Shown here: one piece after another, positions 3,523 through 21,666 of the stretch | Position numbering within the stretch: the first letter of the stretch is position 1 | Layout: every line of letters starts with the position of its first letter | Assembly: GCA_029856435.1 (NCBI GenBank) | Contig: JAHQXB010000109.1 | Span: forward strand, 1-21,952 | DNA length: 21,952 nt | Reading direction: 5' to 3' | From: Candidatus Jordarchaeia archaeon | Lineage (GTDB): Archaea; Asgardarchaeota; Jordiarchaeia; Jordiarchaeales; Jordiarchaeaceae | Position numbers and translations under genes: made by a program | Notes under the pieces: generated by a model | The model's database searches: none | Told to the model about the DNA's origin: nothing | Seen by the model: only the letters and a program-made list of their open reading frames with translations

Positions 3523-3720
3523 TGGCGCCGGGTGTGAGATTTGAACTCACGCGGCGGAATTGCGGCCGAAAGGGTATCCGCCAGTAGGTTTCTTGTTCCG
3601 ACCCGACTGAGAGACTGATTTGATCTCGAGCTTCTGCAGTATCTCCCACAGAGATTGCTTCTACCGCCGTACCATGGCCATACACACACAGGATTGTGTG
3701 TTTAACTTGGCTAACCCGGC
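3523..3720 (-). tRNA. tRNA-Ser (probable anticodon CGA) with four predicted introns
   Basis: The minus strand begins GCCGGGT and ends ACCCGGC-G-CCA, with T-arm GTGAG-TTCAAAT-CTCAC. Removing 3675-3705 (15/16), 3632-3660 (30/31), 3590-3624 (37/38) and 3560-3575 (variable arm) gives an 87-nt type II cloverleaf: D-arm GCC-AAGTGGTAC-GGC, anticodon arm GTAGG-CTCGAGA-CCTAC, variable arm GGCGG-ATTT-CCGCC. The anticodon-arm parse is less certain than the rest. Confidence 0.85.
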
Positions 3721-9581: not shown

Positions 9582-9728
9582 CACCTCGAAACTAAATAGG
9601 CTTATTGAGGTAAAATCACAATATTCTCCTATATATCGCTCATCAGCTATTTTTAAACGATTTTCAACCCAGATTGCAACACTAAACCAATTAAGCAATT
9701 ATCCTATTACCAATAATTTACTGATAAA

Positions 9729-9779
9729 GATATCGAAATCAGATACTAATATCAAAAAAAGATATCAAAAAAAGATATC
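9729..9779. repeat. GATATC iteron array upstream of the ATPase
   Basis: GATATC 9729 / GATACT 9742; AATATC 9748, GATATC 9761, GATATC 9774 separated by A7 spacers. Confidence 0.8.
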
Positions 9780-11806
9780 CACGCATCGAATCGAGGAAAA
9801 ATTTGACCAAAATCAACACAGGACACAAAAATAGATCATACGGCAGCTCAAAAAAATAAAAGCAAAGGCATATATGGGAGAGAACTAAGCACCATAAAAC
9901 CACACTCTGAAAAGAAGTATATGGAAATTCTCGTAAAATGTTTACAAAAGTGTATACATAGAGCCCACCCTGATAGAAACCCAAAAAAACGAAACTATTT
10001 ATAAAGAGAGTAATACCTAGAGACTATATACGTATCAAAATAGGCACAAAACAGGGTCCTAAAACGCACCGAACAAACTCCACAAACCATAAAATAACTC
10101 AAATTTAGGCCAAAAAACAAGCCCAACAGCAAAAGCGCCAAAGTAAAATTAACGAAAATCCATTTTCCAAAGTTTTTAAATATTCTCTAGCGAATGCTTT
10201 ACATAATTTTACTTTTTTAAATCTATTCCCTAAATTGTTGAAAATTTTTCAAATTAACAATGCAAAATTATAAAAAAATACGTCAAAATATATAAAGAAA
10301 TTAAAAAATAAAAATTGTACAACACACCGCTAGCAAAGGGAACAAGTCCAAAAAATTGAAGTATCCTTTTTTCTGGGATTGTTTGAGGCATGCTATCGCC
10401 GACGATTCCCCCCTTTACCGATGTAAATAGCCTGGACAGATTGGCCTGTGATGGCCACCTAAGCCGAATAGACGAACGAAGTGCCCACTGGCTTCGAGCC
10501 TCTGTTCACTATCATACACCCTACCCCTTTTCTGAGGAAATTGCACTGGCCTGGCAGAAGGAACTGCAACCATCTGTGTGGAAAACACGCTGATGCCATG
10601 GGCAATGTACTTAAAGCAATAGCCCTATCCTCTTATACGTCTGGCCTTAGGTAGTTCAGCGTGCCTCCATCCCCGGCCTTCCTGTCCCCTACAAGGCGTC
10701 AGTTTGTAACTTTAATCTCAAAAAGTCCTGTTCCGCTCCAAAAATTTGTAAAAATTACTACCTTCAAAACTGGAAAAACAACTAAAAGCAAAAAGGAAAG
10801 CCCAAAAAACCCATTTTACTTTACAAGCTGGCGTTCCACTAACTTTCTGGCGCCCATACTTCTCCCCGCCAAAATTTTTTGAACCTCGCGGCGCCCCTTG
10901 TAGGCCTCCCATCGTAAAATTTGGAGTAAACAATGAGGGTGATTCCCCTCCCTCTGACCGCACTCATAATTGCACCCAAACGTCACAAGTCAGCGTCCAT
11001 ATAGACTGCTGAGCCGGGCGGTACATGTCTTAGGAGGGAACCTGTATCCCAAGTGTTTTTTTGTGGCTTTAACCGCCACCACAGTGTTGATTGCCAGCTG
11101 GGTATAGACTTTCCATTTAATTTTTTCCTTTTCGCTTCCAGAAAGTATGGTTTTTCCTTCTTTTTTGGGGAAAGAAGCCTTAAATAACCCCGGTCAAGGA
11201 TAGGTTTAGGAAAAAAAATTAATGAGAAGCTCTATACTCAGAAATAAAAGAATTTTGGACGTGCTCCTAGCGGGGCCACGAAGCTTCACGCCGCTCCTCC
11301 ATCGAAGCGCCCCAATTCTTAGCTATAAAACTAGAATAACGCCGCAGAACACACGGAAAAGGCAATCACCCAAACAGCCTTACTCCAAATAAGAAAAGTA
11401 TGAAAGAAATAGAATTAGATCTATCTTACCAGCACGTACTAGTCTTAACAATTTTAGAAAATAGTTGGATCCAATTAAAAACAAGATCTTTATAGCATTT
11501 AGGAAAGACGTGCTTTGGATATTGCTTTTCGAAATTACTCAGAACTTCAAGCCAAATTTTTGAAGGTGTTATTTTGAACTGAGTGTGTGTACTTTACGGG
11601 GGTCAAAAGTGAGTCTTAGGAATTTATTGTAAAGGATCTATGCCCAAGCGATAAAAACCATTCATTTTGAATATCCGAAATTTAAGTGAAAACGGGGAAC
11701 GAAACATTAAGATTGTCACTCATGCTTAATTTTTGTATCTGCAGGACCTAAAAAAAGTTGTTGAATAGAAAAAAGCACTCTGAAGGTGGGAACTCTGTGG
11801 TAACAT

Positions 11807-11827
11807 ACCCCTCTCTTTCTACTGGAA
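11807..11827 (-). promoter_or_regulatory. Origin recognition box (ORB1)
   Basis: Minus strand TTCCAGTAGAAAGAGAGGGGT: ORB dyad plus G-string. Confidence 0.8.
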
Positions 11828-11989
11828 TTCCTTGTCTAAGATTGCTCGAATTAATTTTATAATAATTATTTGAGTTTTTAGTCCAAAAACTTAGATAAAT
11901 ATGCTTAAATATATGAAAAAGTAACTCTAAATGGGGGAGTAGTTAACAATTAACTATTATAAATAAATAGTTATTTAAGTAGTTAACCC
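11828..11989. other. AT-rich candidate DNA unwinding element
   Basis: About 77% AT by manual count over 11831-11990; lies between oppositely oriented ORB1 and ORB2. Confidence 0.55.
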
Positions 11990-12010
11990 TTACAGTGGAA
12001 ATGAAGGGGT
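11990..12010 (+). promoter_or_regulatory. Origin recognition box (ORB2)
   Basis: TTACAGTGGAAATGAAGGGGT, one dyad mismatch from the canonical ORB. Confidence 0.82.
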
Positions 12011-12492
12011 AGGCGTATTAACTTTAATTTTTATGTGGCTGTGTTTTGTTAGAACACGTGTACCAATTTTTTATATCTCTACCTCTCTTTGTATTGCAAA
12101 GACTCTGCACGATATTATGTTTTGGTACTTTCTGAAAAAGGAATTATATACTGGAACATACTGTTCGGGGACTATTATTGCGCTGTCACCTGCTGCTTCG
12201 CAACCTTCATAGTCCAGCAAACCGGCTTTATGTTTTACTTTCGTGTTGTTTTTTGTCTTCCAAGCGTATCTGAAGCCAAATAATTCTTTGTAGAACTTAA
12301 TCCTTAGGGGGTCGTTTTTTTTCCCTGGTAGAATATCATAGACGTATATGTAATTAATACTTGATCCCTCTTCTTTTGTTTCCCGTTTTTGGACTTATGC
12401 TTTTTTAAAATTTTATGTGACGAGGATATTTTTTAGAACATGTGTAGCTAGTTTTCTCATGACCTGCTAGCTTGTTCATGATTCCTTTTAAA

Positions 12493-12524
12493 GATATCTT
12501 ATATTGATATCTGGCTTTGACATC
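12493..12524. repeat. GATATC iteron triplet inside oriC
   Basis: GATATC 12493, GATATC 12506, GACATC 12519; between ORB2 and ORB3. Confidence 0.85.
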
Positions 12525-12762
12525 TATTCTTTGCTCACAAAAAGAAGGATCCATGTAGGTCTTGTTATTGGTGATACCTTTTCGTTTAATTATTCCTTAT
12601 GACGCGCCAAAATAAAACTTGACCGTGGGGTTACTGGCTCTTTATTTTTATTATTCACATGTGGCGCTCTATTTGTTAATGTTTGGAGTAAAATGAGGCA
12701 TATTTACGGGTTATTTTTGAAAAAAGGGCGATTTTTTCTTGTTAATATGGTTTTTATTTCTT

Positions 12763-12783
12763 ACCCCTTTGTTTCCACTGGAA
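12763..12783 (-). promoter_or_regulatory. Origin recognition box (ORB3)
   Basis: Minus strand TTCCAGTGGAAACAAAGGGGT, matching the canonical archaeal ORB consensus. Confidence 0.92.
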
Positions 12784-13060
12784 ATTTACTTGAAAAATTC
12801 TTTTTTCTTCTTTTTGCTGGATGGGTTTTTGTGAATCTGTTAATGTAGAAATCTGTGGAAAAATTACTTATTTTCTTATTTAAGATAATATAATTTATTA
12901 TTTTTCAAATTGAATCGTTATTTTTGTCTTTTATTGTAAAAAAGTCAAAATTCTTATTTTTTCGGTTTTTTATTTCTTTTTTTGGGTATTCACATTTTAT
13001 GTTATTCATAGATAAACTATATATACTTGTGAGTCTAATAATAGTTCACCTTAATTTCAG

Positions 13061-19463: not shown

Positions 19464-19856
19464 TTAGATCCATATTGTTTGGTCGCTTTCTTTTATCCAG
19501 TCGGTTAGTCCTTCCATTGTTGTTACTTCTGCTCCCTCTATTAGGTCCTCTGGCTTTATTCCCCTCCCTTTGATGCATATTCCGCAGACGCGTACTTTTG
19601 CACCTTCGTTTATGGCCTTCTTTAACCACTCTAATGCGTTTGCATATTCTTTGGGTTCTTGTCCTTTATGTGCTACAAGTACTCCGTCTTCAACTAAAAA
19701 TAAATTAACTTCAATTCCTTCAATTAGAGAGGTGAGCGCTAATCTTAAGGCAGTATATGATCTTTCATGGGTATAGGGTCCGCTGGATATTACAATGGTG
19801 ACTTTTTTCAAATTTTTCAACCCCAAAAACTTGGATTGGAAAAGCTGGGTTAACAT
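19464..19856 (-). CDS. DsrE/DsrF-family sulfur relay protein
   Basis: VTIVISSGPY..ERSYTALRLA, VNLFLVEDGV, VRVCGIC..GRG; a shorter start (TTG 19811, MKKVTIV) is plausible. Confidence 0.88.
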   Translation of the reverse strand: MLTQLFQSKFLGLKNLKKVTIVISSGPYTHERSYTALRLALTSLIEGIEVNLFLVEDGVLVAHKGQEPKEYANALEWLKKAINEGAKVRVCGICIKGRGIKPEDLIEGAEVTTMEGLTDWIKESDQTIWI

Positions 19857-19960
19857 TTAGCCCTTAAACTTATAAATATTACGAAATCTATTACCTTGTA
19901 TTAGTTTTTCTAATAATTATAAGGGCTTACTAGTTTAGATCAAAATTAGAAAATATTTAA

Positions 19961-20146
19961 TGGTGCGGGGAGCGAGATACTCGAGAGGCATCGTGGTAAT
20001 GTCTCTATTCGAACTCGCGCAGGCTTTCGCGGCTTCCGGAAGTGGGAGCCTCTACGCCAGCAGGTCCTGAGCGTTAGCCAGGGATTTAATTCCTGTCTGC
20101 CTCCTCTGGCCACCTGTCAGGCTTTGACCAGCTCGGACATCCCCGC
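19961..20146 (-). tRNA. tRNA-Leu(CAG) with four predicted introns
   Basis: Minus strand GCGGGGA...TCCCCGC-A-CCA. Removing 20106-20123 (21/22), 20073-20096 (30/31), 20025-20051 (variable arm) and 19978-20007 (59/60) gives an 87-nt tRNA: GCAGG-CTCAGGA-CCTGC, TGGCGTAGGCCT variable arm, GCGAG-TTCGAAT-CTCGC T-arm. Confidence 0.92.
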
Positions 20147-20170
20147 AGTTTTGATACCGGTGATGATGCT

Positions 20171-20178
20171 TTTATAAT
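20171..20178 (-). promoter_or_regulatory. Probable TATA box of tRNA-Leu
   Basis: ATTATAAA on the minus strand, 25-32 nt upstream of G1. Confidence 0.55.
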
Positions 20179-20226
20179 TGAATACTTTCTAATTTAGATT
20201 TAAGTTTTCCCTAATCATATTCTTTT

Positions 20227-21666
20227 TTATGTTGTGCTTTTCCTAACCATATTTTCCCTTTTTAATTTGTCGAAAATTTCTTGGGCTTTTTGTTCTGCCT
20301 TGATCTTCAGGGATTCTGATATTATCCTGTTTTTATAAGCTTCGTTAAGTTCTTCTTTGTCTATTATTTTTATTTCACCATTAGGCCACTTTACTACGTC
20401 TACGGCTAGGTCTACGTATCTTAGTCTATTTGGTGGATAGAACTCTATTGGTGTATTTATGTTATAGTATGCGCCTTTAAATTCTCTACCTTTGGAATAA
20501 TATTCTGTTTTTAGATTCCAAGTTCCTAGTGTAATTTCTGTTATTCCATAGTCACCAGTTCGTTTAGGCACGTTTAATCCGTCAAAATATCCGCCGCCTT
20601 GGAAGTGCCTTCTTAAAATTAATTGTTTTTTGTAGAGATCAATGTTGGTTAGGATTCCAGAAAGTGTGAATTGATAACCATTAATTTTTGTATGCTCTAT
20701 TAGTATTTGGTCGCCATTTTTGGGAAAGTCTCTGATGTATATTTTGTTGAAAGTTTCTAAAACCTCTTCTTCCATTTCAGGGTGTTTTGTTAAAATTTCT
20801 TCTGTAAAATCGACTAATAAAGCGTATTCTCGTCCTATTGATTTATAGTAGTGATGTTGGTTAATAGTTTTTACAACTTCTTTTCTTATATTGTCTAGCC
20901 TTCTTTTATCTTCACTGGTAAATTCAATAAATATGTTTTCTGTACCTTCTAATAGGAGCGCCGGGCTTTTGGCTTCTTCTTTTCTTTTCATTAAAGTTTT
21001 TGCCTTTTTGCTCAATTCGGATACTTCTTGAATTATAGTACTAGGATTTTGATTTGCTGCTTCGGTTCTAAAAATTATACCCCATTTATCTGGCTTTATT
21101 TTTTCTCCTAACGAATACAGCGCCTCTATATTTTCTTGATGTCTGATTTTTTTACTAATTTTAACGCCCTCTTGTTCTATTAGTATAACGTACTTTCCGA
21201 CAATCGAAATATTTGTGGTTGCTATGGGGTGTTGTGTTCCTGTTTTTACAATTTCAATAACATATTCTTCCCCTTCTTTTACTGGCTCATTTAAGAGAAT
21301 GGCGAAACAATCACCGATATCGACAAATGCTTTACCGTCATCGATTTTTACTACTTTGCCCTTATACAAAGAGTTTAGTTTGATTGGTGGCTTTCTAAAT
21401 ATTGCGTCTTCGAGTTCTGTTCTTAAAATTTCTTCGATTTTTTGTGCTTTACTTACTTCTCCACTGATTATTATTCCTTGTCTATTTTCAAAATCAACTA
21501 TTTCAATATCTGGTTGCTCAAAGTTTTTTTCTAAATTAAATCTCTCAATCTGTATGGGCGCTGCTTGAGTAATTTTAAATCCGTTGTCTAACATTATCTT
21601 TGTTAGTGCTGTTGAGTATATTCCTCGAATTTTAATTGAAGTTGATTGATTCAATTGCAAAACCAA
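20227..21666 (-). CDS. fau-1: FAU-1 (AU-binding, RNase E/G-like + DUF402) ribonuclease
   Basis: N-terminal IKIRGIYSTALT, S1-like region, RNase E/G-like IIFRTEA, C-terminal DUF402 (YYNINTPIE...YVDLAVDVVKWPNG..KIIDKEEL). Confidence 0.88.
   Translation of the reverse strand: MVLQLNQSTSIKIRGIYSTALTKIMLDNGFKITQAAPIQIERFNLEKNFEQPDIEIVDFENRQGIIISGEVSKAQKIEEILRTELEDAIFRKPPIKLNSLYKGKVVKIDDGKAFVDIGDCFAILLNEPVKEGEEYVIEIVKTGTQHPIATTNISIVGKYVILIEQEGVKISKKIRHQENIEALYSLGEKIKPDKWGIIFRTEAANQNPSTIIQEVSELSKKAKTLMKRKEEAKSPALLLEGTENIFIEFTSEDKRRLDNIRKEVVKTINQHHYYKSIGREYALLVDFTEEILTKHPEMEEEVLETFNKIYIRDFPKNGDQILIEHTKINGYQFTLSGILTNIDLYKKQLILRRHFQGGGYFDGLNVPKRTGDYGITEITLGTWNLKTEYYSKGREFKGAYYNINTPIEFYPPNRLRYVDLAVDVVKWPNGEIKIIDKEELNEAYKNRIISESLKIKAEQKAQEIFDKLKRENMVRKSTT

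What the first reader, a model, noticed from the sequence alone, without database searches (positions are those of the whole stretch)
19961..20146. tRNA-Leu(CAG) with four introns, all at non-canonical positions
Seen: 18-nt (21/22), 24-nt (30/31), 27-nt (variable arm) and 30-nt (59/60) inserts, each forming a bulge-helix-bulge. Central helices are GGTC/GGCC (4/4), AGGC/GCTA (3/4), GCGT/GCGA (3/4) and TTCG/CGAG (4/4), with good inner stems. Over half of the 186-nt gene is intron and none is at the canonical 37/38 site. Known: the classic multi-intron archaeal tRNAs (Thermoproteales) carry up to three introns as far as I recall; whether four is already catalogued needs checking.
Basis: partly seen in the sequence, partly recalled or inferred. 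Interest (0 to 1): 0.72.

Follow-up and report, generated by a model that had tools for sequence, protein, structure and literature searches.

The report
Four-intron leucine tRNA gene, Freyarchaeia
This is a real leucine tRNA gene of an Asgard archaeon (Freyarchaeia), cut into five pieces by four short tRNA-type introns; standard finders miss it, but four-intron tRNA genes are already published for this lineage, so it is a new example and not a new kind.

Summary
On the minus strand, window 20146..19961 is a 186-nt gene with encoded CCA. Removing inserts of 18, 24, 27 and 30 nt (positions 21/22, 30/31, variable arm, 59/60) leaves an 87-nt product that ARAGORN calls tRNA-Leu(CAG). ARAGORN and Rfam see nothing in the unspliced DNA.

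Four congeners keep all four inserts, and exons are more conserved than introns. Other Asgard lineages carry 3, 2, 1 or 0 of the inserts, with gaps at the predicted junctions; one genome has an uninterrupted, colinear gene. All four junctions have bulge-helix-bulge geometry. The genome encodes a catalytic and a non-catalytic EndA paralogue plus RtcB, and I found no other Leu(CAG) copy.

No RNA data could be obtained, so splicing is inferred.

Novelty is low. Valentin-Alvarado 2024 tabulates four-intron tRNAs in Freyarchaeia, and a 2026 preprint reports up to five. This scan had already found four-intron tRNA genes in other Asgard genomes. The one new point is that the orthologue in the published complete Freyarchaeia genome is absent from that paper's tRNA table. 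The same is true of a second four-intron gene in this window, tRNA-Ser(CGA) at 3523-3720.

The parts
19961..20146 (-). tRNA-Leu(CAG) gene, 186 nt including encoded CCA (19961-19963) and discriminator A (19964)
   Evidence: orthologues
20124..20146 (-). Exon 1 (23 nt): acceptor 5' strand, 8-9, D-stem 5' strand, D-loop to nt 21
20106..20123 (-). Intron 1, 18 nt, at 21/22 (D-loop). Central helix GGTC/GGCC 4/4, inner helix 4 bp; type HBh'
   Evidence: The local MFE fold reproduces the motif. Absent in G031, G021, G018 and G016; present in G009
20097..20105 (-). Exon 2 (9 nt): D-stem 3' strand, nt 26, anticodon stem 27-30
20073..20096 (-). Intron 2, 24 nt, at 30/31 (anticodon stem). Central helix AGGC/GCTA 3/4 with the outermost pair unpaired in all 5 species; inner helix CAGG/CCTG
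   Evidence: Absent in G009, G018 and G016; an intron at the same site in G031 and G021. The local MFE fold prefers a register shifted by 2 nt
20052..20072 (-). Exon 3 (21 nt): nt 31, anticodon loop CTCAGGA, anticodon stem 3' strand, start of the variable arm
20025..20051 (-). Intron 3, 27 nt, in the variable arm between its loop and the 3' strand of its stem. Central helix GCGT/GCGA 3/4; inner helix GGCT/AGCC
   Evidence: Inserts of 17-35 nt at the same junction in G009, G031, G021 and G018; uninterrupted GGCGTAG|GCCTGC in G016. Thermodynamically the weakest motif
20008..20024 (-). Exon 4 (17 nt): end of the variable arm, T-stem 5' strand, T-loop 54-59
19978..20007 (-). Intron 4, 30 nt, at 59/60 (T-loop). 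Full hBHBh' motif: T stem as outer helix (5 bp), central helix TTCG/CGAG 4/4, inner helix
   Evidence: The local MFE fold reproduces it, z = -2.45. Found only in the genus; G009 has a 13-nt T-loop insert at another site
19961..19977 (-). Exon 5 (17 nt): nt 60, T-stem 3' strand, acceptor 3' strand, A73, CCA
20170..20177 (-). TTATAAAA, 24-31 nt upstream of nt 1: candidate archaeal TATA box (inference from sequence only)
   Evidence: Read; no tool test
19942..19953 (-). Two TTTT runs 8-19 nt after CCA: candidate oligo-T terminator (inference)
   Evidence: Read

Best explanation
This is the functional, and only detectable, tRNA-Leu(CAG) gene of a Freyarchaeia-type Asgard archaeon. It is probably transcribed from a TATA-like box about 27 nt upstream as a precursor of about 186 nt. 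Each of four inserts (21/22, 30/31, variable arm, 59/60) folds with its neighbouring exon nucleotides into a bulge-helix-bulge motif. That motif is a 4-position central helix, a 3-nt bulge on each strand, and an intron-internal helix. The splicing endonuclease EndA cuts after the second bulge nucleotide on both strands. EndA here is probably an (alpha-beta)2 heterotetramer built from a catalytic and a non-catalytic paralogue. RtcB then joins the five exons into an 84-nt class II tRNA plus CCA. Shown: the gene, the boundaries, their conservation, the presence/absence pattern in relatives, and the enzymes in the genome. Inferred: transcription, cleavage, ligation and any order of splicing.
For: (1) The spliced product is a full-length tRNA-Leu(cag) by ARAGORN. 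(2) Four congeners (G003, G001, G005, G002) keep all four inserts. Exon columns are 94% identical pairwise and intron columns 80%. All 115 cloverleaf pair cells pair, against 41-50% when partners are slid, with compensatory changes in the acceptor stem (G-C to U-A) and the T stem (A-U to U-A). (3) BHB helices pair in 90% of cells against 27-43% when slid, and the changes are mostly GC/GU swaps that keep pairing. (4) Orthologues outside the genus lack inserts at the predicted junctions. G009 has D, V and a different T-loop insert; G031 and G021 have 30/31 and V; G018 has V only; G016 has none and is colinear with the spliced product. (5) BHB geometry at all four junctions is far beyond chance. 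(6) There are two EndA paralogues. The C104 copy is closest to the catalytic chain of the Aeropyrum pernix heterotetramer (3p1z_B, E 3e-45) and keeps Tyr, His and Lys. The C64 copy has Thr in place of the catalytic His. RtcB is present. (7) No second copy of the anticodon-arm exon exists in a 97.8%-complete genome, and my survey recovered the other four Leu isoacceptors separately. (8) Published work describes the same phenomenon in this lineage.
Against: There is no RNA evidence of any kind. Introns 2 and 3 have only 3 of 4 central pairs, with the outermost pair unpaired in all five species. Local MFE folds prefer another register for intron 2 and give no signal for intron 3 (z = -0.07). The MFE fold of the whole precursor shows the motif clearly only for intron 4. 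Covariation rests on five closely related sequences. My solver is permissive: 3% of interior shuffles gave some ARAGORN-accepted product. No orthologue was found in congener G004 (96% complete).
Confidence: 0.87

Rival explanations
1. The gene is real but fewer than four inserts are spliced. One insert, most plausibly the 27-nt variable-arm insert or the 24-nt anticodon-stem insert, stays in the mature tRNA as an expansion, or is removed at other boundaries.
For: Introns 2 and 3 have 3/4 central helices with a conserved mismatch and weak or shifted local folds. My solver found an equally scored alternative variable-arm boundary at 93-113. Class II tRNAs tolerate long variable arms.
Against: An insert at 30/31 would break the anticodon stem. 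The variable-arm insert varies from 17 to 35 nt with unrelated sequence between lineages, while GGCGTAG and GCCTGC around it stay fixed, and it is absent in G016. In the four out-of-genus orthologues I checked by eye, the central helix at this junction reads 4/4. The alternative boundary would keep sequence that is not conserved outside the genus.
Confidence: 0.07
2. It is a decaying tRNA pseudogene that has accumulated insertions, and CUG codons are read by tRNA-Leu(UAG).
For: No expression data. A Leu(TAG) gene exists in the genome and could in principle read CUG by wobble. No orthologue was found in G004.
Against: All 23 cloverleaf pairs are intact in five species, with compensatory changes. 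Exons are more conserved than inserts. All four inserts keep BHB geometry. CCA, a TATA-like box and T-runs are in place. It is the only Leu(CAG) copy found.
Confidence: 0.04
3. It is a chance resemblance or a different structured RNA in a GC-rich island.
For: ARAGORN and Rfam report nothing on the unspliced DNA. My solver gives some false positives.
Against: An uninterrupted orthologue in G016 aligns colinearly with exactly four gaps. Orthologues with 1, 2 or 3 of the inserts exist. No shuffle reached the real score.
Confidence: 0.01

Closest known systems
Four-intron tRNA genes of Freyarchaeia and Atabeyarchaeia (Valentin-Alvarado et al. 2024, Nat Commun, PMC11291895, Supplementary Data 4)
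   Same: Same genus: the tool's G005 reproduces that table's coordinates for five tRNA genes. Same phenomenon: 92-95% of tRNA genes are interrupted, over half of them several times and often at non-canonical positions. Four-intron rows exist for Arg-TCT, Ile2-CAT and Leu-GAG.
   Different: The table's 38 Freyarchaeia tRNAs include Leu CAA, GAG, TAG and TAA but no Leu CAG. The orthologue of this gene sits at G005:C1:1631535-1631720 with the same four introns and is not listed. This isoacceptor is therefore an unlisted member.
Census of heavily interrupted Asgard tRNA genes (Goswami et al. 2026, bioRxiv 10.64898/2026.10.13.758758)
   Same: Freyrarchaeaceae average about 2.4 intervening sequences per tRNA gene, with up to five in one gene. 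D-arm inserts are often missed. Gains are repeated and lineage-specific. Two EndA paralogues fit an (alpha-beta)2 enzyme. My presence/absence pattern fits repeated gains.
   Different: As described, the census starts from annotated tRNA genes. I found no mention of whole genes that escape the annotator. This gene is invisible to ARAGORN and to the Rfam tRNA model; I could not run tRNAscan-SE.
Multi-intron tRNA genes of Thermoproteales / Crenarchaeota (Sugahara 2008; review by Yoshihisa 2014, PMC4090602)
   Same: Protein-spliced BHB introns occur at non-canonical sites, including 30/31, 45/46 and 59/60. Relaxed hBH / HBh' motifs occur. They are associated with alpha2beta2 endonucleases.
   Different: A different phylum. 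The review mentions three introns per gene for Crenarchaeota, while this gene has four. None of the four is at 37/38.

Membership tests
Archaeal protein-spliced (BHB) tRNA intron | [quoted passage not shown] | tested here: met
   The geometry is exact at all four junctions. The central helix is 4/4 for introns 1 and 4. It is 3/4 (relaxed class) for introns 2 and 3 in all five species.
Archaeal protein-spliced (BHB) tRNA intron | At least one flanking helix (h or h') | tested here: met
   The inner helix h' has 4 contiguous pairs in all four introns of the window gene. Intron 4 also has the 5-bp T stem as the outer helix.
Archaeal protein-spliced (BHB) tRNA intron | Removal restores a canonical tRNA; relatives lack the insert at the same junction | tested here: met
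   ARAGORN calls Leu(cag) on the spliced product. The uninterrupted orthologue in G016 and partly interrupted ones align with gaps at the junctions.
Archaeal protein-spliced (BHB) tRNA intron | Splicing endonuclease EndA and ligase RtcB are encoded | tested here: met
   Two PF01974 hits (108 and 80 bits) and one RtcB hit (579 bits) in the window's own genome.
Archaeal protein-spliced (BHB) tRNA intron | Spliced RNA or excised (circular) intron observed | not testable with these tools
   No RNA run holds the locus. The two runs labelled metatranscriptomic behave like DNA and show no joints.
Class II tRNA-Leu | Cloverleaf with 7-bp acceptor stem, D, anticodon and T arms, a long variable arm, anticodon CAG, U33, purine 37, T-loop TTCGAAT, A73 | tested here: met
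   ARAGORN drawing. All 23 pairs hold in five species. The 14-nt variable region has a 3-bp stem.
(alpha-beta)2 heterotetrameric EndA with broad substrate range | One catalytic subunit with Tyr/His/Lys plus one structural paralogue lacking the catalytic His | tested here: met
   The C104 protein aligns gap-free over the catalytic motifs with A. pernix alpha (3p1z_B) and keeps the His that is mutated in 3ajv. The C64 protein aligned to M. jannaschii EndA has Thr at that His.
(alpha-beta)2 heterotetrameric EndA with broad substrate range | The two subunits assemble and cleave relaxed motifs | not tested
   Would need biochemistry; no complex prediction was run.

The most novel reading that the evidence does not exclude
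The most fragmented tRNA genes of Freyarchaeia are missed as whole genes, not only as single introns. Published tRNA sets of even the complete genome (38 genes, no Leu-CAG, no Ser-CGA) then have artificial gaps, and the true intron load is higher than both published estimates. This window alone supplies two such hidden four-intron genes with unlisted orthologues in that genome.
Probability: 0.6. Interest if true: 0.4.

Novelty: new member of a known kind. Interest (0 to 1): 0.3.

Why it matters
The gene completes the leucine decoding set of this organism. It also shows concretely that standard tRNA finders can lose entire genes in Freyarchaeia, so counts of tRNAs and of introns in Asgard genomes are underestimates. 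The nested pattern of 0, 1, 2, 3 and 4 inserts at one orthologous locus across Asgard lineages is a clean single-locus illustration of stepwise intron gain. It does not change what is known about how such introns work.

Tried and rejected
- ARAGORN, with and without its intron option, and Rfam at gathering and at E<=10 found no tRNA in the unspliced region.
- Genome-wide, Rfam's tRNA model gave 7 hits and ARAGORN 2-6.
- RNA evidence: no RNA holder is listed. Two hot-spring runs labelled metatranscriptomic gave multi-kb contigs like the DNA runs, with no joints, so they say nothing on splicing.
- The MFE fold of the whole 186-nt precursor (z = -2.5) reproduced the acceptor stem and the intron-4 motif but not the motifs of introns 1 and 2.
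- My first solver over-called a fifth intron in the variable arm and then timed out. The second version works but yields low-scoring false positives, such as 5-6-intron solutions of 288-390 nt.
- An exact-pattern search for the joined variable arm matched only 1 of 301 Asgard genomes. That is enough as an existence proof and useless as a frequency.
- The solver could not parse the Ser gene at 3523-3720, so I parsed it by hand.
- The published 'Ser AGA' of G005 is not its orthologue.
- Rfam found nothing in the ORF-poor stretch 10200-11400.

Full report
**What is there**

The GC-rich island (51% GC in a region of about 33%) reads as a tRNA on the minus strand. It starts with GCGGGGA at 20146 and ends with TCCCCGC-A-CCA at 19961. 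ARAGORN and Rfam find nothing in the raw sequence.

I removed pre-tRNA positions 24-41, 51-74, 96-122 and 140-169 (18, 24, 27 and 30 nt, 99 of 186 nt). That leaves an 87-nt sequence that ARAGORN calls tRNA-Leu(cag) over its whole length, with a 3-bp variable-arm stem, a TTCGAAT T-loop, A73 and CCA. The positions are 21/22, 30/31, the variable arm between its loop and the 3' strand of its stem, and 59/60. None is at 37/38.

**Is it more than chance?**

At each junction the exon ends with four nucleotides that pair with four intron nucleotides lying two bases before the 3' cut. Three unpaired nucleotides sit on each strand, and an intron-internal helix of four contiguous pairs starts directly after the 5' bulge.
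- Central helices are 4/4 for introns 1 and 4, and 3/4 for introns 2 and 3.
- Intron 4 also has the T stem as its outer helix, which makes a full hBHBh' motif.
- The combination of central >=3/4 and inner >=4 occurs at 0.36% of random sites in this genome.
- None of 20,000 shuffles of the gene had more than two of the four sites qualifying.

It tied on score with one alternative variable-arm boundary. The solver is permissive. With the real acceptor and T arm kept and the interior shuffled, 9 of 300 shuffles gave some ARAGORN-accepted product, though none reached the real score. The decisive evidence is therefore comparative.

**Comparative evidence**

Four genomes of the same genus carry the gene with all four inserts.
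- Exon columns are 94% identical pairwise; intron columns are 80%.
- All 115 cloverleaf pair cells pair, against 41-50% with slid partners. Compensatory changes occur in the acceptor and T stems.
- The BHB helices pair in 90% of cells against 27-43% when slid, mostly through GC/GU swaps.
- The outermost central pair of introns 2 and 3 is unpaired in all five species, so these two are conserved relaxed motifs.

Outside the genus the same locus carries fewer inserts:

| Genome | Relation | Inserts present |
|---|---|---|
| G009 | same order | D-loop, variable arm, and a 13-nt T-loop insert at another site |
| G031, G021 | same phylum | 30/31 and variable arm |
| G018 | same phylum | variable arm only |
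| G016 | same phylum | none |

The uninterrupted G016 gene is called Leu(cag) directly by ARAGORN. In one alignment, the window gene differs from it by gaps at or next to the four predicted junctions. For intron 4, MAFFT places the gap 3 nt further 5' than the BHB boundary; the BHB boundary keeps the T-loop as TTCGAAT. The variable-arm insert varies from 17 to 35 nt with unrelated sequence, while the flanking GGCGTAG and GCCTGC stay fixed. This rules out the alternative boundary.

**Machinery and context**

The genome (3.54 Mb, 42% GC, 97.8% complete) has two EndA paralogues.
- The C104 protein is closest to the catalytic subunit of the Aeropyrum pernix heterotetramer. It keeps Tyr, His and Lys, including the His that is mutated in PDB entry 3ajv.
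- The C64 protein has Thr at that His.

This fits an (alpha-beta)2 enzyme, the type linked in the literature to relaxed motifs at non-canonical sites and already noted for most Asgard genomes. RtcB is present.

No second copy of the anticodon-arm exon exists in the genome. My heuristic survey recovered Leu CAA, GAG, TAA and TAG as separate genes. TTATAAAA lies 24-31 nt upstream of nt 1 and two T-runs follow CCA; both are inferences from sequence only.

**Weak points**

There are no RNA data. Local folding reproduces the motifs of introns 1 and 4. It prefers a register shifted by 2 nt for intron 2 and gives no signal for intron 3. Splicing of these two rests mainly on comparison with relatives, and on the fact that an insert at 30/31 would break the anticodon stem.

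**Comparison with what is known**

Earlier notes of this scan named the lineage. I tested this. The tool's same-genus genome G005, a single 3.58-Mb contig, has tRNA genes starting and ending exactly at the coordinates given for SRVP_Freyarchaeota in Supplementary Data 4 of Valentin-Alvarado et al. 2024, for all five genes that I fetched.
- That paper reports 92-95% of tRNA genes interrupted and more than half multiply interrupted.
- Its table has four-intron rows: Arg-TCT, Ile2-CAT and Leu-GAG in Freyarchaeia, and Lys-TTT and Trp-CCA in Atabeyarchaeia.
- A 2026 preprint reports up to five intervening sequences per gene in these families.
- Within the window's own genome, my survey suggests about five four-intron genes among roughly 25 credible ones.

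So four introns is not new for the lineage. What is new is small. The published table lists no Leu(CAG) for the complete Freyarchaeia genome, yet the orthologue with the same four introns lies at 1631535-1631720 of G005.

**In passing**

The window holds a second hidden four-intron gene, tRNA-Ser(CGA) at 3523-3720 on the minus strand.
- Its introns are in the D-loop, at 30/31, at 37/38 and in the variable arm, and it has a 7-nt anticodon-loop exon.
- Full-length orthologues exist in four congeners, including G005:1647848-1648027, which is also absent from the published table.

**Verdict**

The gene is real, the parse is correct and the mechanism is well supported. It is a new member of a published kind. 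Confidence is 0.87 and interest 0.3.

Noticed in passing
window 3523-3720 (minus strand): Second four-intron tRNA gene: tRNA-Ser(CGA), 198 nt with CCA. Introns are at 3675-3705 (31 nt, D-loop, central 4/4), 3632-3660 (29 nt, 30/31), 3590-3624 (35 nt, canonical 37/38) and 3560-3575 (16 nt, variable arm, 4/4). Exon 3 is a 7-nt micro-exon. ARAGORN calls the spliced 87-mer Ser(cga). Orthologues exist in G003, G001, G002 and G005. The G005 copy at 1647848-1648027 is not in the published tRNA table, which has no Ser-CGA.
   Followed up: yes
window 3590-3660 (minus strand): In the Ser(CGA) precursor, the outer helix (anticodon stem) of the 37/38 intron is complete only after the 30/31 intron has been removed. 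This hints at an obligatory order of splicing (inference).
   Followed up: partly
G005:C1:1631535-1631720 (L004:1513-1698): The orthologue of the finding in the complete published Freyarchaeia genome has the same four introns. It is absent from the 38-gene tRNA table of PMC11291895.
   Followed up: yes
G000:C93:302-1636 (L038), outside the window: The only RtcB gene of this genome has one in-frame TGA inside a 579-bit Pfam match. It could be selenocysteine, a short intron or an error; I did not examine it.
   Followed up: no
window 9700-13060: A stretch of about 3.3 kb has no ORF of 100 aa or more. GC-rich islands (45-51%) lie at 10300-11100. There is no CRISPR-like repeat and no Rfam hit. Unexplained.
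   Followed up: partly
window 19700-20400: Hot-spring metagenome contigs about 90% identical span the whole locus with all four inserts in place. Two of the three runs are labelled metatranscriptomic but behave like DNA.
   Followed up: partly
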